DNA from: a virus
Taxonomy: Duplodnaviria > Caudoviricetes
Virus record (IMG/VR): IMGVR_UViG_3300037067_012889
Location: 32,001-96,000 of that record
Strand: one strand, 5' to 3'
Length of the DNA stretch: 64,000 nt
A program made the position numbers and the translations under genes. Under the pieces are notes generated by a model. That model saw only the letters and a program-made list of their open reading frames with translations. It searched no databases and was not told where the DNA came from. Positions 33,992 through 55,078 of the stretch are shown piece after piece (within the stretch, counting starts at the first letter, position 1; the number at the start of each line of letters is the position of its first letter).

Positions 33992-34016
33992 TTTCGAATC
34001 TCCTGTGCTTGGGGCG

Positions 34017-34069
34017 GACCTCCCTCCCCGGTACCAAGTTGTAGCACGAGAGCAGGTGATTATTAACCG
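34017..34069 (-). repeat. 53-bp promoter-leader cassette copy
   Basis: CGGTTAATAATCACC..CGTGCTACAACTTGGTACCGGGGAGGGAGGTC. Confidence 0.85.
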
Positions 34070-34431: not shown

Positions 34432-34463
34432 GGCATCTCTTTCTAGGCTGAAAACTTGAAGCT

Positions 34464-34516
34464 GACCTTCCTCTCCGGTACCAAGTTATAGCACAAGAAG
34501 AGGTGATTGTTAACCG
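34464..34516 (-). repeat. 53-bp promoter-leader cassette copy
   Basis: CGGTTAACAATCACC..TGTGCTATAACTTGGTACCGGAGAGGAAGGTC. Confidence 0.85.
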
Positions 34517-35582: not shown

Positions 35583-35607
35583 CGCGTCTCTCCTGTGTGT
35601 TGGAGAG

Positions 35608-35660
35608 GACCTTCCTCTCCGGTACCAAGTTATGGCACGAGGGGAGGTGATTGTTAACCG
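35608..35660 (-). repeat. 53-bp promoter-leader cassette copy
   Basis: CGGTTAACAATCACC..CGTGCCATAACTTGGTACCGGAGAGGAAGGTC. Confidence 0.85.
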
Positions 35661-35972: not shown

Positions 35973-36001
35973 TTTATAGCACCAGAGCAGGAGATTATTA
36001 A
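35973..36001 (-). promoter_or_regulatory. Phage promoter motif
   Basis: TTAA-N14-GGTGCTATAAA. Confidence 0.7.
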
Positions 36002-36024
36002 CCGGCTTGCGACGGCGATCAAAG

Positions 36025-36076
36025 CGGTTAACAATCACCGCCCATCGTGCTATAACTTGGCATGGGGAGGGAGGTC
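36025..36076 (+). repeat. Promoter-leader cassette copy
   Basis: CGGTTAACAATCACC..CGTGCTATAACTTGGCATGGGGAGGGAGGTC. Confidence 0.85.
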
Positions 36077-36103: not shown

Positions 36104-37666
36104 ATGCTCAGCTTCACCGAACAGTTTCTCGCAGCTCGCAAGGTCGGCGTTCCTCTCATCGGAATCGAAAGCAGCGATCCTGGTGCGACGATGAAGACGC
36201 TGGTCAAGGACTGCTCCGAAACGCCTGTTTCTGCTGCTGTCGTTACGTGGAATTCGGCCACTGGTGTTGTTGGCAACAACGTTGCTGGTGAGAAACTGGC
36301 ATCGCGTCTGAACGAAGACCCCGACATCGCCGCTCCGATCGCTTTTCTGACCGCAATCGCCAGCGACGTCACGCCGGGATGGACCATCATCGGGATGCAA
36401 GCGGCAACCGATTGGTTCGACAACCCGGTCGTTCGTCAGGCCATCTGGAATCTCCGCGACAACTTCAAGCGTCGTGGTTGCACTCTCGTCCTGCTCTCGG
36501 ACGTCATCCAGCTACCGAACAGCCTCAAAAACGACGTCGTCATCATCGAAGAGCCGATGCCGAACGAAGAGCAGTTGGCCGGAATCGTCAAGACGCTCGA
36601 CGCACAAACGAGCCGTTGCGATTGTGGCGGCGTCAAGGGCTGCACGAAGTGCAAGGGGACTGGCATCAAGACGAAGCGGCCGTTGTGTGACGAGGACACG
36701 GTTGGCCGCGTGGTCGAAGCCGTGAAGGGCTTGCCGTACTTCGGTGCTGAACAGGTCGTGGCGATGGCACTCCGCAATCAGCCGGTCGCCGGACAGAAGC
36801 CCACGAGCTGCATCGACCTCGAACACTGCTGGAGTGCGAAGCGGAAGCAGGTCGAGCAGACGAAGGGGCTGTCGATCCATCGTGGCGGCGAGACTTTCGA
36901 TGATCTCGGTGGTCTCGACCAAATCAAGACCTACTTGAGTCGCATCATGACGGGCCGCAAGGCTCCGAAGCTCATCGTGTGGCTCGACGAAATCGAGAAG
37001 ACCGGCTTGGCAAATCGTGGCGACACGAGCGGCGTCAATCAGGACCAGGAAGGTACACTGCTTTCCTGGATGGAAGATTTCGACGTCTTCGGTGTCATGC
37101 TCCTTGGCGTTCCGGGTTGCGGCAAGTCGGCCATCTGCAAGGCGGTTGGTGCCGAATACGATCGCGTCGTCATCCGAATCGATCTCGGTGCGATGCAAGG
37201 CTCGCTGGTCGGCCAAAGCCAGACCAACATCCGAGCAGCCTTGAAGGTGGTGCAGGCCATCGGTGGTACCGACACGCTGTGGCTGGCGACGAGCAACAGC
37301 ATCAGCGGCTTGTCCTCTGCGATGAAGTCCCGATTCACCGACACCTTCTTTTTCGACCTGCCGCCGAAGGAAGAGCGTCTGCCGATTTGGAAGGTGTGGC
37401 TCGACAAGAACGGCCTCTCGGACAAGCCTTTCACGAACGACGAAGGCTGGGTCGCCCGCAACATCAAGAAGTGCTGCGACAAGGCGTTCCGAATGGGCAT
37501 CTCCATCGCGGAAGCCGCCACATACATCACCCCTGTTGGCCTGACCGACCGCGAGGACATCAAGAATCTGCGGTCCTGCGCCGACAACCGGTACCTCTCG
37601 GCCTCTCATGCTGGCGTCTACAAGGTGCCGAAGACCGTCGAGCCGGAACGGGCTTTGAGCCTCTGA
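36104..37666 (+). CDS. Ycf46-like AAA+ ATPase with swapped Walker A/B segments
   Basis: GGL..IK, WLDEIEK, GVPGCGKS, ATSN, RF...FFFDLP; CxxCxGxG insertion. Confidence 0.9.
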   Translation: MLSFTEQFLAARKVGVPLIGIESSDPGATMKTLVKDCSETPVSAAVVTWNSATGVVGNNVAGEKLASRLNEDPDIAAPIAFLTAIASDVTPGWTIIGMQAATDWFDNPVVRQAIWNLRDNFKRRGCTLVLLSDVIQLPNSLKNDVVIIEEPMPNEEQLAGIVKTLDAQTSRCDCGGVKGCTKCKGTGIKTKRPLCDEDTVGRVVEAVKGLPYFGAEQVVAMALRNQPVAGQKPTSCIDLEHCWSAKRKQVEQTKGLSIHRGGETFDDLGGLDQIKTYLSRIMTGRKAPKLIVWLDEIEKTGLANRGDTSGVNQDQEGTLLSWMEDFDVFGVMLLGVPGCGKSAICKAVGAEYDRVVIRIDLGAMQGSLVGQSQTNIRAALKVVQAIGGTDTLWLATSNSISGLSSAMKSRFTDTFFFDLPPKEERLPIWKVWLDKNGLSDKPFTNDEGWVARNIKKCCDKAFRMGISIAEAATYITPVGLTDREDIKNLRSCADNRYLSASHAGVYKVPKTVEPERALSL

Positions 37667-37859
37667 TACGTCCTGTGTCACAACTCGATCGGATGTGGCT
37701 CGTAGTCGCTCCGATCGGGTTGTTTTCTTTGAGGTAATAGATGAAAACCCGCGAATTGGTGAAACTGTTAATTGGTGCGCTATTAATAACTGGTGTGTGT
37801 TGGCTTGTGCATCTGGTCGAGTGGTGTTGTCAGCCATAGTCGAGATGGCAAACAGGCGG

Positions 37860-37888
37860 TTAATAATTACCCCTCATCGTGCTATAAC
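37860..37888 (+). promoter_or_regulatory. Phage promoter motif
   Basis: TTAA-N14-CGTGCTATAAC. Confidence 0.75.
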
Positions 37889-37925
37889 TAGTTACCGGAA
37901 AACAACATCTAACAGGAGATAGACG

Positions 37926-38882
37926 ATGACCGAGATCGAAAAAGCCCAATCAGAAGACGCTCAAGCCGCAAACGTGCTCGATTTGACAACCTGCTTGCTG
38001 CTCCGATTCCACAAAACCGGCCTCATTCGGAAGGGCAACATCACCAAAATCCAAACGATTGCCAACAAGAAACGTCTTGGACTCAACAAGAAGATTCTGA
38101 CCAGCGGGAATTACGACAGCATGATGCTCATCGCCCGCGACATTCGCCGCTACGCCGTGAAGCGTCAGGTCCCAGGGTCGCCGTTCTCGGAAGGAACTCA
38201 CCTGATCCCATTGCCACTCGTCGACGACCTGAACGACAAGATCACGAATGCTGAGAACGCGTACAACACGTGGGCCGACATGTTCGTCGACGAATACGCC
38301 AACCTGGTCGAGGAAGCGAAAGAGGAATTGCAAGATCAGTTCGATCCCAACAACTACTTCGACGTGAGCACCGATTCAGGTCGCAACGCACTGCGTGCCA
38401 AGTTCTGGGTAGAGCGGCGATGGTTCGACTGGTCGCCGTCCAGCGACAAGAAGGTGTCGAGTGTGGTTGCCTCACAGGAAAGGCGTCGTCAAGCAACCGA
38501 AATCCAGGATATGGCACTGCAGGTCAAAGCAGCGTTGCGGATGGGCTTGAAGAAACTCATCGACCATCTGGTCGAGCGTCTGACGCCTACCCCTGGTGGC
38601 GCTCGCAAGATGTTCGCTCCGACGACGATCACGAAAATCGCTGATTTCTTGGAGTTGTTCTCTGCCCGCAATGTCTGCGGTGACAAGGAATTGGCACTGC
38701 TCGCCGATCAAGCACGTGAGGTGCTCGACGGTCAAACTGCAGAATCTATCAGAGGCGACGAAGAAGTACAATCGGTCGTCGCCGGACATATGTCAACGAT
38801 CAAGGAAGGGTTGGACAAACTGCTGCAAGACATGCCAGAACGTGTCATCAACCTGGACGATGATGAGGATGATGATGAATAA
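37926..38882 (+). CDS. Helical protein, DUF3150-like AAA-module partner
   Basis: K.IL...G..LIP...F..EY...F....Y...KF...F...NV..D.EL pattern; position after AAA gene. Confidence 0.6.
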   Translation: MTEIEKAQSEDAQAANVLDLTTCLLLRFHKTGLIRKGNITKIQTIANKKRLGLNKKILTSGNYDSMMLIARDIRRYAVKRQVPGSPFSEGTHLIPLPLVDDLNDKITNAENAYNTWADMFVDEYANLVEEAKEELQDQFDPNNYFDVSTDSGRNALRAKFWVERRWFDWSPSSDKKVSSVVASQERRRQATEIQDMALQVKAALRMGLKKLIDHLVERLTPTPGGARKMFAPTTITKIADFLELFSARNVCGDKELALLADQAREVLDGQTAESIRGDEEVQSVVAGHMSTIKEGLDKLLQDMPERVINLDDDEDDDE

Positions 38883-39210
38883 GCTCGTCAAATTACTACT
38901 ACAGGTCCTAGTGTGGCCTGTAGTAGTAATTTTTCGATGGTTCGATGGTGATCGATTATCATCACTTCAAGCATGGTCTGATGAAGTCTTAAAGGACGAC
39001 CAAGACCTCGACAATGAGGGATTTCTAAAGAAGGTCCAAGAAGATAATCTCACCAAAACACTATTCCCTACCGAATTTGCTAAGAAGGTAGCAGAGATTT
39101 ACGGTGCAACGGGGTGTGTTAGCACTGCTGCTCCTCTCGACATCCAAAATAAGGACTCTGACAAGCCAGAAATAGATACAGGCGACGAAAGAGTTATCTG
39201 TCTCGATTAA
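38875..39210 (+). CDS. Hypothetical membrane-anchored protein
   Basis: Hydrophobic N-terminus. Confidence 0.5.
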   Translation: MNKLVKLLLQVLVWPVVVIFRWFDGDRLSSLQAWSDEVLKDDQDLDNEGFLKKVQEDNLTKTLFPTEFAKKVAEIYGATGCVSTAAPLDIQNKDSDKPEIDTGDERVICLD

Positions 39211-39235
39211 TAATTACCCGGATTCGTGCTATAAC
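39207..39235 (+). promoter_or_regulatory. Phage promoter motif
   Basis: TTAA(stop)-N14-CGTGCTATAAC. Confidence 0.75.
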
Positions 39236-39267
39236 TGGGTAGCGGGAAAGCAAATACAGGAGCAATC

Positions 39268-39714
39268 ATGTCACACGTCGTCGCGATCAAGCTCGAAATC
39301 AAAGACCTGAAAGCATTGGCCGAAGCAGCGAAAGCTCTCGGAGCCGAATTCGTCGAAGGTAAAAAGACCTTCCGATGGTACGGCAGATGGGTGAACGACT
39401 ACAGCGAAGAGAATGCCGCGTACAAGAACGGCATCGACCCGAAGGACTACGGGAAGTGCGATCACATCATCAGTCATCCCGACTGCTGCTACGACATTGG
39501 ACTCGTCAAGCAGTCGAATGGCACGTTCCTTGTCGTAGCCGACGAGTGGCATGCTGGTGGATTGGCACAGGTGTTCGGAAGTGGAATGTCGAAGCTCAAA
39601 CAGCGGTACGCGGTTTCCGTCGCCGCTCGAACCATGCGAGCCAAGGGATGGCGTGTCTCCGAGCGACCCGGCCAAAAGGCCGACAGCGTTCGTCTTGTCT
39701 GCACCAAAATGTGA
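39268..39714 (+). CDS. DUF1257 (Ycf35-like) protein
   Basis: MSH...I..EI.D...L..A...LG; DIG......G.F..VAD.W; L.Q.YA. Confidence 0.8.
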   Translation: MSHVVAIKLEIKDLKALAEAAKALGAEFVEGKKTFRWYGRWVNDYSEENAAYKNGIDPKDYGKCDHIISHPDCCYDIGLVKQSNGTFLVVADEWHAGGLAQVFGSGMSKLKQRYAVSVAARTMRAKGWRVSERPGQKADSVRLVCTKM

Positions 39715-39724
39715 AAGGGAGAAA

Positions 39725-39910
39725 ATGCAAACGATCACGATCGATATCGATACCGATGGGTCACCAACGATCAAAGTCAACGGTGTCCCCGGCAAGTCGT
39801 GCAAGGACGTCACAAAAACCGTTGAACGTGCTCTCGGGACAGTCACCTCGGATAAATCGACGCCTGAAATGTACCAACCGGAGAAGGCCCAACGACATGT
39901 CAGCCAATGA
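39725..39910 (+). CDS. DUF2997 protein
   Basis: I.I.I..DG...I.V.G..G.SC...T...E.ALG.V.....T.E.Y. Confidence 0.85.
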   Translation: MQTITIDIDTDGSPTIKVNGVPGKSCKDVTKTVERALGTVTSDKSTPEMYQPEKAQRHVSQ

Positions 39911-40998: not shown

Positions 40999-41046
40999 AT
41001 CCGTTACTATTTCGTGCTATAACTGGGTAGCGGGGAGGGAGGTCCG
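40995..41046 (+). promoter_or_regulatory. Promoter motif with conserved GGGGAGGGAGGTCC leader
   Basis: TTAA(stop)-N14-CGTGCTATAAC. Confidence 0.75.
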
Positions 41047-42960: not shown

Positions 42961-42989
42961 TTAACGAGGAATATGTCTGGTGCTATAAC
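42961..42989 (+). promoter_or_regulatory. Phage promoter motif
   Basis: TTAA-N14-GGTGCTATAAC. Confidence 0.75.
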
Positions 42990-43031
42990 TAGACAGAGGG
43001 GACACAGCACACAGCAAATAGGAGATTTATC

Positions 43032-46175: not shown

Positions 46176-46370
46176 TTATTGATTTAGCTTCGCGAGCATC
46201 TTCGAGACAGCTTCTTCCGGAGTTGCTCCGAGCGTATTACGAATCTCTCCATTGGTATGGTAGTTGACGCAAGCACATACCCATTCATCTTGCTTGCGTA
46301 GTTCGTAATACTCACCAGCTTCGGTGACTGCTGGTAATCTATTGAGAAGCTCAACTAATGACTCATTCAT
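46176..46370 (-). CDS. Hypothetical protein
   Basis: ATGA overlap with ligase; GATPEEAV. Confidence 0.6.
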   Translation of the reverse strand: MNESLVELLNRLPAVTEAGEYYELRKQDEWVCACVNYHTNGEIRNTLGATPEEAVSKMLAKLNQ

Positions 46371-48433
46371 GGTAGCTCACGTTCTCCATCCAAGACGGCT
46401 CGCAGGCAATCGATACTGATGATCTTCGTGCCGTAGCTTTCGGCCTTCAATGTCTTGCCAGACGAAGATGTCGCATCTTTCTGAACCAGGTAGTCGAGTC
46501 CTTTGCTTACGCCGCTCTTTACGACACCGCCCTTCGCAACAACCTCGTCGATATAATCGCGGCAACCAGTCCAGCAGAATGACGATCCGGCAATTTGTTT
46601 CTGCTTCGGCTCGCCATCGACCGTCTCGTCTGCCACCTCGTTTACCACGACAGCAATCGGCACAATTGGCGAAACCACGACACCAACCGATAACAAATCA
46701 TCGATGATTGGTCGAGCAGCCGCCAGACCTTCAACGATCGATTTCTGCATTATCTTGCTTGGAATTGCTGTTTTCAGTTTCTCCTCGTCCAGCCAATCTT
46801 CGAGTGTTGTCAAACCTTGTTCGGTGGCGATGATCTCGACGCGGCGACGTCCAAGCAATGAAATGCCGAGAGCGCCGAGAAACTTGTGTAATTGCAGCTG
46901 TTTCGATTTCTCGATCTCTGCAAGCAGGCTTGCTGTTCTGCTGTCACCGAGGCGGATCGGCGTTCCAGTCTTGCTCTCACCAATTTTCAGATCGACAAGC
47001 TGTTCGGCCTTAAGACGATAAAGATCGGCTGGCGTCGAAACAAGCTCCGCATCAACAAGAGCTTGCAATACCGAATCACCGATACCCACAATACCGACAC
47101 CCTTGTCGGAACTACCGATGTAGTGCTTGATTTTGCCAGTCGATTGGCCTGCACAGTCGAGATTTGTGCAATATGTGACCGCACTCATCTTCTCCCGCAG
47201 CATTCTGGTCGTTGGCGAACCACAAATCGGGCATACTTTCGGTTCTTCAATCGGCTGACGGTCAGCGGGACGATCAATGATGCTAACGACCTTGGGAATG
47301 ACGTCGCCTTGCCGTGCAATCTCGACGATATCGCCGATGGCGACGTGTGCTGCTGATGGATACTCGCTTGCAGGATTCCAGTTATTCAACAACACGTTCG
47401 TCACTGTGACGCCGCCGACGAAGACCGGTTCGAGAATTGCTGTGGGAATAATGGCCCCGGTGTGTCCGAGCGTGATTGTGACGTCCTTGACTTTCGTCTG
47501 TGCCTTTGCAGTGACGAACTTGACGGCTCGTCCATACTTCGGACGAAGCTCATCTTTCCGATCTTTTGTAATCTGTTTCTGCATCACGATGTCGTCAACC
47601 ATCACCACGACGCCGTCGATCTCGAATGGCAGTGTTGGCCGTCGTGCCTCGATCTCGGAAAAATAGTCCTCGAACGACTTGACAGCTTCGTCTCCGCCGA
47701 TGACAACATACTGCACTGGTGTGAAGCCAAGCTTTCGAAGCGTTTTGAACTTCATGTTAAGCGACGGGAAGCTCAGGCCATCGCTAACGACATTGAAGGC
47801 CACGAACTGAATCATTTCATTCTGTGTACCGTCTGTCCGACCAAGAATGCCACTCCCGACATTTCTCGGATTGGTGAGCGTCGGGTCAGCCGCCTTCATC
47901 ATGTCGAACCAGCACTTGTAGAGAATCGCTTCGCCGCGCACAGTTCCAGTAAACGGAACCGGCAGGCTCGTCGGTACACCGGCCCATTTGACGGCATTCG
48001 CGGTAAGCGATTCACCGATTTCGCCATTCCCACGGCTGATAGCTTCGACGAATTCACCTTTAACGTAGCTCAACGCTACGCTATTGCCGTCCATCTTCAA
48101 CGAAGCATTAACGTCAAAACCGTCAACGCCAAGCAAGGCGCAGGTTTTATCATACCACGACGCAAAACCGCTCAGACCACCATCGGTGTTGTCGAGTGAC
48201 CCCATCGGGATTGAATGTGTTCGCTTCTCCCTCATGTCGTCCGAGGAGAATGGGGTGCCGACCCGTGTCAGGCGAGGATCATCGGGGACCAGCTCGCGAA
48301 GCTCACCGATCAGGGCTTCAAATTCATCATCGGTGACTGGCGACTCACAACCCGGAGTGTAGTAGAGTTGTGCGGCACGGTCGATGGCCGACCGTAGTGT
48401 TGCCAATCTGGCTTTTTGATCGCTATCTTTCAT
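46367..48433 (-). CDS. ligA: NAD-dependent DNA ligase
   Basis: YY...P.TD..F, PM.SL, KMDG, SRGNG..GE, EIDGVV, GDVIP, C4 zinc finger, HhH, BRCT. Confidence 0.97.
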   Translation of the reverse strand: MKDSDQKARLATLRSAIDRAAQLYYTPGCESPVTDDEFEALIGELRELVPDDPRLTRVGTPFSSDDMREKRTHSIPMGSLDNTDGGLSGFASWYDKTCALLGVDGFDVNASLKMDGNSVALSYVKGEFVEAISRGNGEIGESLTANAVKWAGVPTSLPVPFTGTVRGEAILYKCWFDMMKAADPTLTNPRNVGSGILGRTDGTQNEMIQFVAFNVVSDGLSFPSLNMKFKTLRKLGFTPVQYVVIGGDEAVKSFEDYFSEIEARRPTLPFEIDGVVVMVDDIVMQKQITKDRKDELRPKYGRAVKFVTAKAQTKVKDVTITLGHTGAIIPTAILEPVFVGGVTVTNVLLNNWNPASEYPSAAHVAIGDIVEIARQGDVIPKVVSIIDRPADRQPIEEPKVCPICGSPTTRMLREKMSAVTYCTNLDCAGQSTGKIKHYIGSSDKGVGIVGIGDSVLQALVDAELVSTPADLYRLKAEQLVDLKIGESKTGTPIRLGDSRTASLLAEIEKSKQLQLHKFLGALGISLLGRRRVEIIATEQGLTTLEDWLDEEKLKTAIPSKIMQKSIVEGLAAARPIIDDLLSVGVVVSPIVPIAVVVNEVADETVDGEPKQKQIAGSSFCWTGCRDYIDEVVAKGGVVKSGVSKGLDYLVQKDATSSSGKTLKAESYGTKIISIDCLRAVLDGERELP

Positions 48434-53866: not shown

Positions 53867-55078
53867 ATGCCAGCCGCAGAAGCCAGAGACTACCAGATCC
53901 GATTGGTCGACAAAACGATCCATCTCTTCAATAATGGATTCAAATCAGTACTACTCAATTCGCCGACCGGCTCTGGCAAGTCTTATATGGGTCTAAAGAC
54001 CGTCGCAGAATTGCAGAGGATACACAACGTCGGGGCGATGTGGGTCGCGATGCGTCGGAATCTGCTCAAGCAAGTCGTGGCCGAGAATGAGAAACTCGGA
54101 GTTGGAGCAGAAATCACCCCGATTTCGATGTTCAATAGGAATCCACCAACTCATGACAACCTCGGACGGCCCATCAAGATCGTCGTACTTGATGAGAGTC
54201 AGCACGATCCTGCTGGCAGCATGTCGAATATCTACAACATTGTCAAGCCGAGTTGGATTCTCGGAATGACGGCAACGCCGTTTCGGACCGACCGGATGCG
54301 ACTGAGTTTCGACAAGGTGCTACGCGATATCGGCATTCATCAGCTAATCCAATCGGGGTATCTCTCGCAGTACCATCAATACACGATTCCACAATGGAAC
54401 GTCGATGAGGTCGTCTCCTGCTATCTTCGCGAACCAGAGCGATGGGGCAAGAGTGTCTTCTATTGGTTTACGCACGAAGACGCCCTCAAATGCACCAATC
54501 GTCTGAACGCAGCCGGTGTCAGGACAGAACTAGTGACGGCTGAGACCGACCGCGAGACACAACTCGCTCAGTTCGAGAGCGGCGAAGTGAAGTGTCTCGT
54601 GAACATGCAAATCCTGACAGAGGGATTCGATTCTCCGTCGCTCAGAACGGTCTTCGTCCGAGACTCGCAGCGTGGCCCAACTATCCAAATGGCCGGTCGC
54701 GTCTTCCGGAAATACCCCGGAATCGAGTTCAAACAAATCGTTCAGAGCAAGATGACTCACTGGCCAATCCAACGAACAGCCGCACCGGCTCACGCGAGTG
54801 TCTGGCTGCCGGAAGAGCGGGAATGGAGGAGCTACGCTCAGAGCGAAGCGATTGAGAAGGTATCCATGCGGGTCTGCATCACTCTCGCCCACACCAAGAC
54901 CTCGATGCCAACATTCATCGTCAAGGCACAAGAGAAAAAAGGTCGTCGGCATCGCCGAGTGGACGATACCGGAGGGCGGGCAAATACCGAATCTGGGTTG
55001 CCACAACGTGACGATAGCCAATTCGACGCTCGTCCGGGATGGGTGGGTGGATTTGGTGGCGGTGCCATCATTCACTAA
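53867..55078 (+). CDS. Superfamily 2 (DExH-like) helicase
   Basis: RDYQ, SPTGSGKS, LDESQH, GMTATP, LTEGFD, QMAGRVFR. Confidence 0.9.
   Translation: MPAAEARDYQIRLVDKTIHLFNNGFKSVLLNSPTGSGKSYMGLKTVAELQRIHNVGAMWVAMRRNLLKQVVAENEKLGVGAEITPISMFNRNPPTHDNLGRPIKIVVLDESQHDPAGSMSNIYNIVKPSWILGMTATPFRTDRMRLSFDKVLRDIGIHQLIQSGYLSQYHQYTIPQWNVDEVVSCYLREPERWGKSVFYWFTHEDALKCTNRLNAAGVRTELVTAETDRETQLAQFESGEVKCLVNMQILTEGFDSPSLRTVFVRDSQRGPTIQMAGRVFRKYPGIEFKQIVQSKMTHWPIQRTAAPAHASVWLPEEREWRSYAQSEAIEKVSMRVCITLAHTKTSMPTFIVKAQEKKGRRHRRVDDTGGRANTESGLPQRDDSQFDARPGWVGGFGGGAIIH

What the first reader, a model, noticed from the sequence alone, without database searches (positions are those of the whole stretch)
36104..37666. 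AAA+ ATPase with Walker B segment placed before Walker A (internal segment swap)
Established: in classical-clade AAA+ domains such as Ycf46 the order is GGL..K, Walker A, pore loop, Walker B plus helix, sensor-1 (ATxN), Arg finger. Seen here: GGLDQIK, then PKLIVWLDEIEK..DTSGV..GTLLSWMED (Walker B block, WLDEIEK at 36980-37000), then GVMLLGVPGCGKS..RIDLG..SLVGQSQ.NIRAAL (Walker A block, 37106-37129), then LWLATSN..RF..FFFDLP. Both blocks are intact and in frame, so this is a non-circular permutation of the P-loop core. A CxxCxGxG-type zinc insertion also lies upstream.
Basis: partly seen in the sequence, partly recalled or inferred. Interest (0 to 1): 0.85.

Follow-up and report, generated by a model that had tools for sequence, protein, structure and literature searches.

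The report
AAA+ ATPase with swapped core segments
A jumbo-phage gene belongs to a large, previously undescribed family of AAA+ motor ATPases in which the Walker B piece of the ATP-binding core comes before the Walker A piece, a rewiring fixed once and kept with all catalytic residues intact.

Summary
In the 520-aa product of window 36104-37666 (+), the Walker B strand and its helix (residues 286-328) lie upstream of the Walker A / pore-loop block (329-390), followed by sensor-1, the arginine motif and the lid.

- **Not a misassembly.** All 257 family members I could fetch, from many independent assemblies, have this order. So do 13 bacterial MAG genomes and the cultured Tunturiibacter phage Tunturi_3.
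- **Canonical relatives exist.** All 190 relatives in the normal order share the same N-terminal domain and motifs, and the two checked share the same DUF1257/DUF2997 operon.
- **One origin.** A tree needs a single change, and the swapped clade sits beside normal-order Planctomycetota homologues.
- **Active site conserved.** E296, K341, N398 and R410 are invariant and D295 nearly so. Inteins sit in the P-loop of six homologues.
- **Fold kept.** The AlphaFold2 model is confident (pLDDT 91) and has the normal element count. Coevolution places the upstream strand between β2 and β4, the normal β3 position.

I found no paper describing this. The scan's first readers flagged the same order in another genome. 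I read it as a new topological variant of a Ycf46-like AAA+ ATPase. ATPase activity, ring formation and biological role are untested.

The parts
36104..37666 (+). Gene for the 520-aa swapped-core AAA+ ATPase (P0001). The start at 36104 is preferred over the upstream ATG at 36062.
   Evidence: ORF, translation. Homologues align from residue 1-5 of the 520-aa form. A promoter-like motif ends at 36070.
36025..36070 (+). Promoter-like repeat (CGGTTAAYAATYACC ... TCGTGCTATAACT) just upstream of the gene. Copies also precede the next genes of the block.
   Evidence: Repeat families D3/D4 at 36025-36070, 37857-37902 and 39204-39249, with further D3 copies at 41011 and 42977. Reverse-strand copies lie at 34009, 34456, 35600 and 35974. 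The promoter function is inferred from position and a TGnTATAAC-like -10 element.
36104..36823 (+). N-terminal domain (residues 1-240): a degenerate AAA-like alpha/beta domain without a P-loop, with elements in the normal order.
   Evidence: AF2 strands 18-22, 46-50, 95-99, 127-132 and 146-149, plus helices. The whole model superposes on two-tier AAA proteins p97/Cdc48/NVL (Z 17.9, 400 residues; Foldseek E 4e-13). The N-block HMM hits all 120 proteins of the Aeromonas phage HJ05 set of canonical relatives (median 47.7 bits).
36617..36664 (+). Cys-rich zinc-ribbon-like insertion (CxC-x5-CxxCxGxG, residues 172-187) inside the N domain.
   Evidence: Position. Four or more Cys in about 36 of 82 homologues and deleted in the rest. 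Metal binding is inferred from the motif only.
36908..36958 (+). GGLDQIK motif and helix alpha0 (residues 269-285) leading into the core. It ends in the conserved Pro-Lys that precedes strand beta1 in normal-order relatives.
   Evidence: AF2 helix 272-282. G270 and K275 are invariant. Consensus comparison.
36959..37087 (+). Block Y (residues 286-328): strand beta3 with Walker B (LIVWLDEIEK, D295/E296), the GDTSGV loop and helix alpha3. It is displaced to a position before Walker A.
   Evidence: Pfam AAA profile 47-96 maps here. The Y-block HMM hits normal-order relatives downstream of their Walker A (bit scores 20-28). E296 is invariant and D295 at least 90% conserved. AF2 strand 290-294 and helix 311-325.
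37088..37273 (+). Block X (residues 329-390): strand beta1, Walker A GVPGCGKS (37106-37129), helix alpha1, strand beta2, pore-loop-1 SLVGQSQ (37202-37222) and helix alpha2.
   Evidence: Pfam AAA profile 1-54 maps here. G335, G338 and K341 are invariant. Inteins are inserted at about residue 339/340, within the P-loop, in six homologues. AF2 elements.
37274..37363 (+). Block Z (residues 391-420): sensor-1 strand LWLATSN (N398), helix alpha4, K408-S-R410-F arginine motif and strand beta5 FFFDLP.
   Evidence: N398 and R410 are invariant. AF2 strands 391-397 and 413-417.
37364..37663 (+). Helical lid subdomain (residues 421-520).
   Evidence: AF2 helices 422-435, 451-464, 468-472 and 478-493. Residues 253-497 superpose on p97 D2 (Z 16.7, rmsd 2.3 A, 202 residues).
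37926..38882 (+). Context: 318-aa helical protein with an acidic tail, the first downstream gene of the conserved block.
   Evidence: A 303-333-aa protein (DUF3150, faint hit) lies near the ATPase gene in relatives, at or near this downstream position and further downstream. No family hit for the window protein itself.
39268..39714 (+). Context: DUF1257 (Ycf35-like) protein, starting with MSH.
   Evidence: Pfam PF06868, E 6.8e-8. The MSH start is noted as typical of Ycf35 in PMC13060386.
39731..39910 (+). Context: DUF2997 small protein.
   Evidence: Pfam PF11211, E 8.6e-13, on residues 62-108 of ORF 39551-39910. The same gene order follows both swapped and normal-order ATPases.

Best explanation
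The gene encodes a two-tier, Ycf46-like classical-clade AAA+ ATPase. It has a degenerate N-terminal AAA-like domain followed by one catalytic AAA module.

In the ancestor of this family, two adjacent segments of the catalytic module changed places. Segment X is beta1 - P-loop - alpha1 - beta2 - pore loop - alpha2. Segment Y is beta3 (Walker B) - loop - alpha3. The chain now runs alpha0 - Y - X - beta4 (sensor 1) - alpha4 - beta5 - lid. The domain termini are unchanged, so this is a circular permutation of an internal segment, not of the whole domain.

In three dimensions the sheet most likely keeps the normal 5-1-4-3-2 order, and only three loops are rewired: alpha0 to beta3, alpha3 to beta1, and alpha2 to beta4.

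Proposed mechanism:
- ATP is bound by K341/S342.
- Mg2+ and the attacking water are handled by D295/E296, supplied from the upstream strand.
- N398 acts as sensor 1.
- R410 (with K/R408) acts in trans in a ring.
- The Leu-Val-Gly pore loop engages a protein substrate.

The enzyme probably works with the DUF1257/Ycf35-like and DUF2997 proteins encoded downstream, in the phage's DNA-metabolism region.

Shown: the swap, its single origin, its conservation, and conservation of the catalytic residues. Inferred: the sheet order (from the model and coevolution), ATPase activity, ring formation and the biological role.
For: **The swap**
- The Pfam AAA model hits out of order on the DNA.
- Block HMMs give Y-X-Z in 121/121, then 257/257 family members and in 13 genome loci.
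- They give X-Y-Z in 120 Aeromonas phage HJ05-like proteins, in Javan368, RcMenchie gp62 and Firecracker gp100, and in 67 genome loci. No mixed or intermediate order was seen.

**Homology of the whole protein**
- The N-domain HMM hits all 120 normal-order relatives (median 47.7 bits).
- Junction residues are retained: Pro-Lys before the first strand and Asp-Val-Phe at the end of Y.

**Single origin**
- Trees need one change, with support 100 (93 rows) and 99 (134 rows).
- The swapped clade groups with six normal-order Planctomycetota sequences (support 100) against 82 other normal-order rows.

**Selection on the active site**
- D295, E296, K341, N398 and R410 are invariant in 82 sequences.
- E296, K341, N398 and R410 remain invariant in a more diverse set of 54.
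- Six homologues carry inteins of at least two types at about residue 339/340, within the P-loop.

**Fold**
- AF2 gives pLDDT 91.1 and pTM 0.81, with five strands, five helices and a helical lid.
- Residues 253-497 superpose on p97 D2 at Z 16.7, rmsd 2.3 A, 202 residues. The roughly 43 unaligned residues equal the length of block Y.

**Sheet order**
- Mean-field DCA on the 247 swapped sequences (Meff 209) makes beta3-beta2 and beta3-beta4 the two strongest strand couplings. These are V292-I359 (rank 17) and D295-T396 (rank 20) of 18,721 pairs.
- L290-G387 (beta3 start to alpha2 end) ranks 3.
- By window score, the four normal neighbour pairs are exactly the top four of ten strand pairs.

**Same function as normal-order relatives**
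- The same ATPase - DUF1257 - DUF2997 block follows both forms.

**Size of the family**
- 965 clusters at 50% identity score E<=1e-30. The 150 best are all collinear, and the 150th still has E 3e-80.
Against: - No experimental structure, ATPase assay or oligomer evidence exists for any member.
- I had no model coordinates, so the sheet order rests on secondary structure, a sequential superposition and a coevolution analysis with only about 209 effective sequences. In that analysis beta1-beta4 and beta1-beta5 are only in the top 11-12% of window pairs.
- The pore loop lacks the aromatic residue of typical unfoldases (Leu instead).
- P0001 has Lys, not Arg, at 408.
- Both trees are FastTree with midpoint rooting. 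The direction from normal to swapped order rests on nesting plus the universality of the normal order.
- Read-level confirmation of this particular assembly could not be made.
Confidence: 0.85

Rival explanations
1. The order is an artefact of this assembly: a misjoin or local rearrangement in the 364-kb phage contig.
Against: The same order occurs in 257 proteins from JGI, ENA, Logan and NCBI assemblies down to about 35% identity. It also occurs in 13 species-representative genomes and in the complete genome of the cultured phage Tunturi_3. The frame is open, and the junctions are conserved across the family.
Confidence: 0.01
2. The upstream DEIEK block is a relic or accessory element that does not enter the catalytic sheet. 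On this reading the AAA module lacks a working Walker B, and the protein is an ATP-binding but non-hydrolysing pseudo-enzyme or switch.
For: There is no Walker B in the usual place after helix alpha2. Pfam scores are low for an AAA protein, marked 'weak' or 'faint' in precomputed hits.
Against: - E296 is invariant and D295 nearly so, over a family as deep as 35% identity.
- Block Y is as well conserved as block X.
- DCA couples the strand to beta2 and beta4, and D295 to T396 next to sensor 1.
- AF2 packs the block with pLDDT 85-93.
- Without it the module would have four strands instead of five.
Confidence: 0.05
3. The swap is real, but block Y completes the sheet of the neighbouring subunit (three-dimensional domain swapping in the ring) rather than its own. 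Assembly would then be obligatory for folding of the active site.
For: The new alpha0-to-beta3 connection must shift by two strand positions, and the linker is short (about 7 residues). Coevolution cannot tell contacts within a chain from contacts between chains.
Against: The AF2 monomer model is confident with Y packed in cis. The alpha3-to-beta1 and alpha2-to-beta4 linkers are only 3-4 residues, which ties Y closely to its own X and Z blocks.
Confidence: 0.06

Closest known systems
Normal-order phage and bacterial Ycf46-like AAA+ ATPases (COG0464 'SpoVK/Ycf46/Vps4' in JGI names). Examples: Aeromonas phage HJ05 gp65 (WEV89366.1), Rhizobium phage vB_RleS_L338C AAA+ ATPase, Rhodobacter phage RcMenchie gp62, and Gemmataceae/Planctomycetota MAG homologues (L029-L033, L039).
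   Same: - Same length class (about 500-560 aa) and the same degenerate N-terminal domain.
- Same family-specific motifs: GGL..K, G.PG.GKS, LVG.S pore loop, DE[IV][ED]K, GD[ST]G, RF, FF.DLP.
- Same downstream DUF1257 and DUF2997 genes.

   Different: Their core runs Walker A block then Walker B block. Here the two blocks are exchanged, and three connecting loops are new. Identity to P0001 is 27% or less, against 34% or more within the swapped clade.
Classical-clade AAA+ modules with solved structures: p97/VCP D2 (3cf0), Vps4 (6bmf, 4d82), spastin (6pek), fidgetin-like 1 (3d8b).
   Same: Alpha/beta core plus helical lid superpose at Z 16-17, rmsd 2.3-3.3 A, about 200-215 residues. Walker A, sensor 1 and the SRH arginine are in equivalent places.
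   Different: - All of them have beta3/Walker B after alpha2.
- About 43 residues of the model stay unaligned in a sequential superposition.
- The pore loop has Leu instead of an aromatic residue.
Two-tier (type II) AAA+ ATPases: p97/Cdc48, NVL/Rix7, Afg2/Drg1.
   Same: The whole model superposes over both tiers (Z 17.6-18.7, 396-414 residues; Foldseek E about 4e-13).
   Different: The first tier here has no P-loop or Walker B, so it is presumably structural only. The second tier is internally permuted.
Circularly permuted GTPases (YlqF/RbgA, YjeQ/RsgA, YqeH). This comparison is from my own knowledge and was not tested here.
   Same: A P-loop NTPase family in which the order of nucleotide-binding motifs along the chain is changed while the fold and activity are kept.
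   Different: - Those are true circular permutations of the whole G domain (G4-G5-G1-G2-G3), with new termini.
- They belong to the TRAFAC GTPase class.
- Here the termini are unchanged, two internal blocks are exchanged, and the protein is an ASCE-type AAA+ ATPase.

Membership tests
AAA family (Pfam PF00004), classical AAA+ clade | Significant match to the family profile | tested here: met
   53.7 bits against a cut-off of 21.2, E 3.7e-14, in two stretches. The stretches are out of order on the DNA.
AAA family (Pfam PF00004), classical AAA+ clade | Walker A GxxGxGK[ST] | tested here: met
   GVPGCGKS at residues 335-342. G335, G338 and K341 are invariant in 82 homologues.
AAA family (Pfam PF00004), classical AAA+ clade | Walker B hhhhDE | tested here: met
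   LIVWLDE at residues 290-296. E296 is invariant and D295 at least 90% conserved. It lies 40 residues before Walker A, not after it.
AAA family (Pfam PF00004), classical AAA+ clade | Linear order: Walker A - pore loop - Walker B - sensor 1 - arginine finger | tested here: not met
   The order here is Walker B - Walker A - pore loop - sensor 1 - arginine. This is the point of the finding. By homology it is a member; by chain topology it is a variant.
AAA family (Pfam PF00004), classical AAA+ clade | Sensor-1 polar residue at the end of beta4, and a conserved arginine in the second region of homology | tested here: met
   N398 and R410 are invariant. Position 408 is Arg in most members and Lys in P0001 (consensus).
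AAA family (Pfam PF00004), classical AAA+ clade | Alpha/beta core with sheet order 5-1-4-3-2 plus a helical lid | tested here: met
   - The element count is right, and the core and lid superpose on p97 D2 and Vps4.
- Coevolution ranks beta2-beta3, beta3-beta4, beta4-beta1 and beta1-beta5 as the top four of ten strand pairs.
- This is indirect: no coordinates were available and Meff was about 209.
AAA family (Pfam PF00004), classical AAA+ clade | Ring (hexamer) assembly and ATP hydrolysis | not testable with these tools
   This needs biochemistry or a solved structure.
Ycf46-like subfamily (two-domain form found in phages, bacteria, cyanobacteria and plastids) | N-terminal degenerate domain and family-specific motifs shared with proteins that sources name Ycf46-like | tested here: met
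   The N-block HMM hits 120/120 normal-order relatives, several of which JGI names 'SpoVK/Ycf46/Vps4 family'. Atlas neighbour clusters are named Ycf46 family. A bona fide cyanobacterial Ycf46 was not compared directly.
Ycf46-like subfamily (two-domain form found in phages, bacteria, cyanobacteria and plastids) | Gene neighbourhood with DUF1257 (Ycf35-like) and DUF2997 | tested here: met
   Window genes at 39268-39714 and 39731-39910. The same block occurs in Lignipirellula cremea and, after normal-order ATPases, in phage L338C and contig L014.

The most novel reading that the evidence does not exclude
This would be the first natural example of a non-circular (internal-segment) permutation of the AAA+/ASCE nucleotide-binding core that remains a working motor. 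It was fixed once and then radiated into hundreds of phage and bacterial lineages. It would show that the beta-strand order along the chain is not essential for folding or catalysis of this ancient fold. It probably arose through a duplicated Walker B block (an alpha0-Y-X-Y-Z intermediate).
Probability: 0.6. Interest if true: 0.85.

Novelty: new variant of a known kind. Interest (0 to 1): 0.78.

Why it matters
The linear order Walker A then Walker B is treated as a fixed property of AAA+ and other ASCE P-loop ATPases. Textbooks, profile models and annotation pipelines all assume it.

- **A natural rewiring experiment.** Here a large natural family breaks that rule while keeping every catalytic residue. 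It probes how much chain connectivity matters for folding, for coupling between the active site and the pore loops, and for communication between subunits.
- **A matched control.** Close normal-order relatives sit in the same operon, so the two topologies can be compared directly.
- **An annotation gap.** Profile searches score these proteins only as weak or partial AAA hits.
- **A tractable system.** The cultured phage Tunturi_3 and its host allow experiments. The link to DUF1257/Ycf35 and DUF2997 connects the family to the long-unexplained ycf46/ycf35 genes of cyanobacteria and plastids.

Tried and rejected
- **Complex prediction.** Three copies of the AAA module with ATP returned 'no answer' (score 0.01, mark 0.42). 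This says nothing either way about ring formation.
- **Tree method.** The maximum-likelihood search with the default treekit method did not finish in 300 s. I used FastTree instead.
- **Possible split partner or intermediate.** The 212-aa AAA protein just upstream of the Lignipirellula homologue has only weak partial X- and Z-block matches and no Y-block match. It is a separate small normal-order P-loop ATPase, so I rejected it.
- **Intermediates.** I looked for forms with duplicated blocks (Y-X-Y-Z, X-Y-X-Z) among about 460 proteins and loci and found none. The full list of 5,182 hits could not be fetched.
- **Literature.** Seven full-text searches covered permuted AAA/P-loop/ATPase/Walker terms, 'Walker B before/upstream of Walker A' phrasings, Ycf46 with permutation, Ycf46 with phage, and Ycf35 with AAA. 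None found a description of this arrangement. The jumbo-phage survey PMC7824862 mentions permuted methylases only.
- **Curated families.** NCBIfam has no specific family, only sub-threshold P-loop hits to IteA, CdvC and PAN. PHROGs gives phrog_8638 (unknown function), matched in three stretches.
- **Model coordinates.** These are not exposed to scripts, so I could not read the sheet order directly from the AF2 model.
Full report
**What is there**

The window is bases 32001-96000 of a 363,885-bp IMG/VR virus record that CheckV rates complete, so it is a jumbo phage. The ORF at 36104-37666 (+) encodes 520 aa.

- GGLDQIK, residues 269-275.
- LIVWLDEIEK, 290-299 (WLDEIEK = 36980-37000).
- GDTSGV, 306-311.
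- EGTLLSWMED, 316-325.
- GVPGCGKS, 335-342 (37106-37129).
- VVIRIDLG, 355-362.
- SLVGQSQ, 367-373.
- LWLATSN, 392-398.
- KSRF, 408-411.
- FFFDLP, 415-420.

Pfam AAA matches above its cut-off (53.7 bits) in two stretches. On the DNA these stretches are out of order. Profile positions 47-96 lie at window 36926-37084, upstream of profile positions 1-54 at 37094-37255.

**Not an artefact**

A word-indexed search found 909 homologues, and the best 120 are collinear with the query at 37-99% identity. They come from JGI, ENA, Logan and NCBI assemblies. An alignment of twelve of them shows the same order throughout.

An exhaustive HMMER search of 1.84 billion cluster representatives gives 965 clusters with E<=1e-30. 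The best 150 all cover the query in its own order, as one stretch or as two collinear ones, and the 150th still has E 3e-80.

I cut the family alignment (A2) into block profiles and located the blocks in every protein fetched:
- Y = residues 286-328 (Walker B strand plus helix).
- X = residues 329-390 (Walker A to helix alpha2).
- Z = residues 391-440 (sensor 1 to beta5).

All 257 family members are Y-X-Z. So is gp103 of the cultured Tunturiibacter phage Tunturi_3. So are 13 loci in species-representative genomes of Myxococcales, Armatimonadota, Nitrospirota, Acidobacteriaceae and others.

**It is a swap of two homologous blocks**

The same block profiles hit relatives of normal order, with X before Y before Z:
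- 120 of 120 proteins gathered around Aeromonas phage HJ05 gp65.
- Streptococcus satellite Javan368, Rhodobacter phage RcMenchie gp62 and mycobacteriophage Firecracker gp100.
- 67 genome loci.

Block Y scores 20-28 bits against these proteins and always falls between their X and Z. The N-terminal domain profile also hits all 120 (median 47.7 bits), so the proteins are homologous end to end.

The consensus sequences show clean junctions:
- The Pro-Lys that precedes beta1 in normal-order proteins now precedes the Walker B strand.
- The Asp-Val-Phe that ends block Y is kept and now runs into G-V-M-L-L-G-V-P-G.
- Helix alpha2 now runs into L-W-L-A-T-S-N.
- The linkers are 3-7 residues long. No relic of a second copy is left.

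**One ancient event**

For the trees, the swapped blocks were put back in normal order for alignment, in scripts only. Two FastTree analyses each need a single change of the label:
- 93 full-length rows, support 100.
- 134 AAA modules including the genome loci, support 99.

In the larger tree the swapped clade groups (support 100) with six normal-order sequences from Planctomycetota/Gemmataceae MAGs, against 82 other normal-order rows. The swapped form is therefore nested among normal-order forms.

Together with the universality of the normal order, this points to a change from normal to swapped order, once. A plausible route is insertion of a duplicate of Y upstream of X (or a tandem X-Y duplication), followed by loss of the redundant copies. 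This is inference, because no intermediates were seen.

**The active site is under selection**

- D295, E296, K341, N398 and R410 are invariant in 82 sequences.
- E296, K341, N398 and R410 remain invariant in a more diverse set of 54, with D295 at 90% or more.
- Six homologues carry inteins, of at least two families by their Pfam domains, inserted at about residue 339/340 within the P-loop. In my experience that is the kind of site inteins typically occupy in essential ATPases.

**Fold**

AlphaFold2 on the 82-sequence alignment gives pLDDT 91.1 and pTM 0.81. The C-terminal module has, in chain order:
- helix 272-282 (alpha0)
- strand 290-294 (beta3)
- helix 311-325 (alpha3)
- strand 329-335 (beta1)
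- helix 341-351 (alpha1)
- strand 355-359 (beta2)
- helix 371-387 (alpha2)
- strand 391-397 (beta4)
- helix 405-410 (alpha4)
- strand 413-417 (beta5)
- a helical lid

This is the normal AAA+ element count. There is nothing between alpha2 and the sensor-1 strand that could be a second Walker B.

Residues 253-497 superpose on p97 D2 at Z 16.7, rmsd 2.3 A, over 202 residues, and on Vps4 at Z 17.1. The roughly 43 residues left out of a sequential superposition match the length of block Y.

The whole model superposes on two-tier AAA proteins such as Cdc48, p97 and NVL. The N-terminal 240 residues are thus a degenerate first tier without a P-loop.

**Sheet order, tested independently**

- The strongest strand-strand couplings are V292-I359 (beta3-beta2, rank 17 of 18,721 pairs) and D295-T396 (beta3-beta4, rank 20).
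- L290-G387 ranks 3. It links the start of beta3 to the end of alpha2, two points that are covalently adjacent in normal-order proteins.
- With a window score, beta3-beta2 and beta3-beta4 lie in the top 2-3% of all window pairs.
- The four normal neighbour pairs (2-3, 3-4, 4-1, 1-5) are exactly the top four of the ten strand pairs, which has a chance of 1 in 210.

This supports the normal 5-1-4-3-2 sheet with rewired loops. The sample is small, and the beta1 pairs are weak.

**Context and likely role**

Downstream lie three genes:
- a 318-aa protein at 37926-38882;
- a DUF1257/Ycf35-like protein at 39268-39714, starting MSH as Ycf35 proteins do (PMC13060386);
- a DUF2997 protein at 39731-39910.

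The same block follows the swapped ATPase in Lignipirellula cremea. It also follows normal-order ATPases in Rhizobium phage L338C and a 101-kb viral contig, next to DnaB and polymerase genes. In cyanobacteria, DUF2997 and ycf35 are clustered too (PMC4284462).

The swapped and normal-order enzymes therefore look like functional equivalents in one conserved module. My working model is a ring-forming protein remodeller that acts with these small partners during the phage's DNA-metabolism phase. This part is inference.

**Zinc insertion**

Residues 172-187 read CxC-x5-CxxCxGxG. More distant members have two CxxCxGxG units, and over half of the family lacks the insertion altogether. It is an optional decoration of the N domain.

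**Novelty**

Seven full-text searches found no description of an AAA+ or other ASCE ATPase with Walker B before Walker A. NCBIfam and PHROGs have no named family for it.

The nearest concept I know of is the circularly permuted GTPases. These are whole-domain circular permutations in a different P-loop class.

First readers of this scan flagged the same order, on this stretch again and in another genome's AAA/DUF1257/DUF2997 block. I treated those notes as leads only.

**Verdict**

This is a new topological variant of a known enzyme family. It is real, ancient and widespread. Its structure, activity and role remain to be shown experimentally.

Noticed in passing
window 34009-34069, 34456-34516, 35600-35660, 35974-36005 (reverse orientation); 36025-36070, 37857-37902, 39204-39249, 41011-41034, 42977-43000 (forward): A repeated 45-60-nt intergenic motif (CGGTTAAYAATYACC, a spacer, then TCGTGCTATAACT with a TGnTATAAC-like -10) sits upstream of nearly every gene of this block, in the orientation of the gene. 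It looks like a phage-specific promoter with a half-palindromic upstream box. Divergent copies flank 35974-36070.
   Followed up: partly
window 37926-38882, 39268-39714, 39731-39910: A conserved module lies downstream of the ATPase: a roughly 310-aa helical protein with an acidic tail, a DUF1257/Ycf35-like protein starting MSH, and a DUF2997 protein. The same order follows both swapped and normal-order ATPases in other phages and in Lignipirellula cremea. Another reading of this genome reports a second divergent pair up to 42309, which I did not test.
   Followed up: partly
homologues P0007, P0008, P0067, P0076, P0083, P0095 (insertion at about residue 339/340 of P0001, within the P-loop): Six family members carry inteins of about 160-360 residues inserted in the Walker A loop, with at least two different intein or homing-endonuclease domain types (PF14890; PF05203/PF14528). 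Two normal-order relatives also carry inteins (P0126 and P0216).
   Followed up: partly
window 1-64000: There is a GC step. The first 31 kb are 41-46% GC apart from one 50% bin, while 32-60 kb are 47-57%. The ATPase gene lies in the richest 2-kb bin (57%). This may mark a mosaic or acquired region of the jumbo phage.
   Followed up: no
G000:C1:29330-30466 (minus strand; just upstream of the window), locus L002 781-1917: The same phage encodes a second, normal-order AAA+ protein of 378 aa (Pfam AAA positions 2-126). It has a GVPGIGKTS P-loop and a RarA/MgsA-like look.
   Followed up: no
window 46367-48433 (-), 53867-55078 (+): An NAD-dependent DNA ligase (phrog_3869, E 1e-127) and a DNA helicase (phrog_16) place the ATPase block in a DNA-metabolism region.
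   Followed up: no
L008 7292-7930 (Lignipirellula cremea CP036433.1): A 212-aa stand-alone normal-order P-loop ATPase sits directly upstream of the swapped ATPase in the planctomycete locus. That locus also holds a transposase and a type I restriction-modification system, so it is probably a mobile or prophage island.
   Followed up: partly
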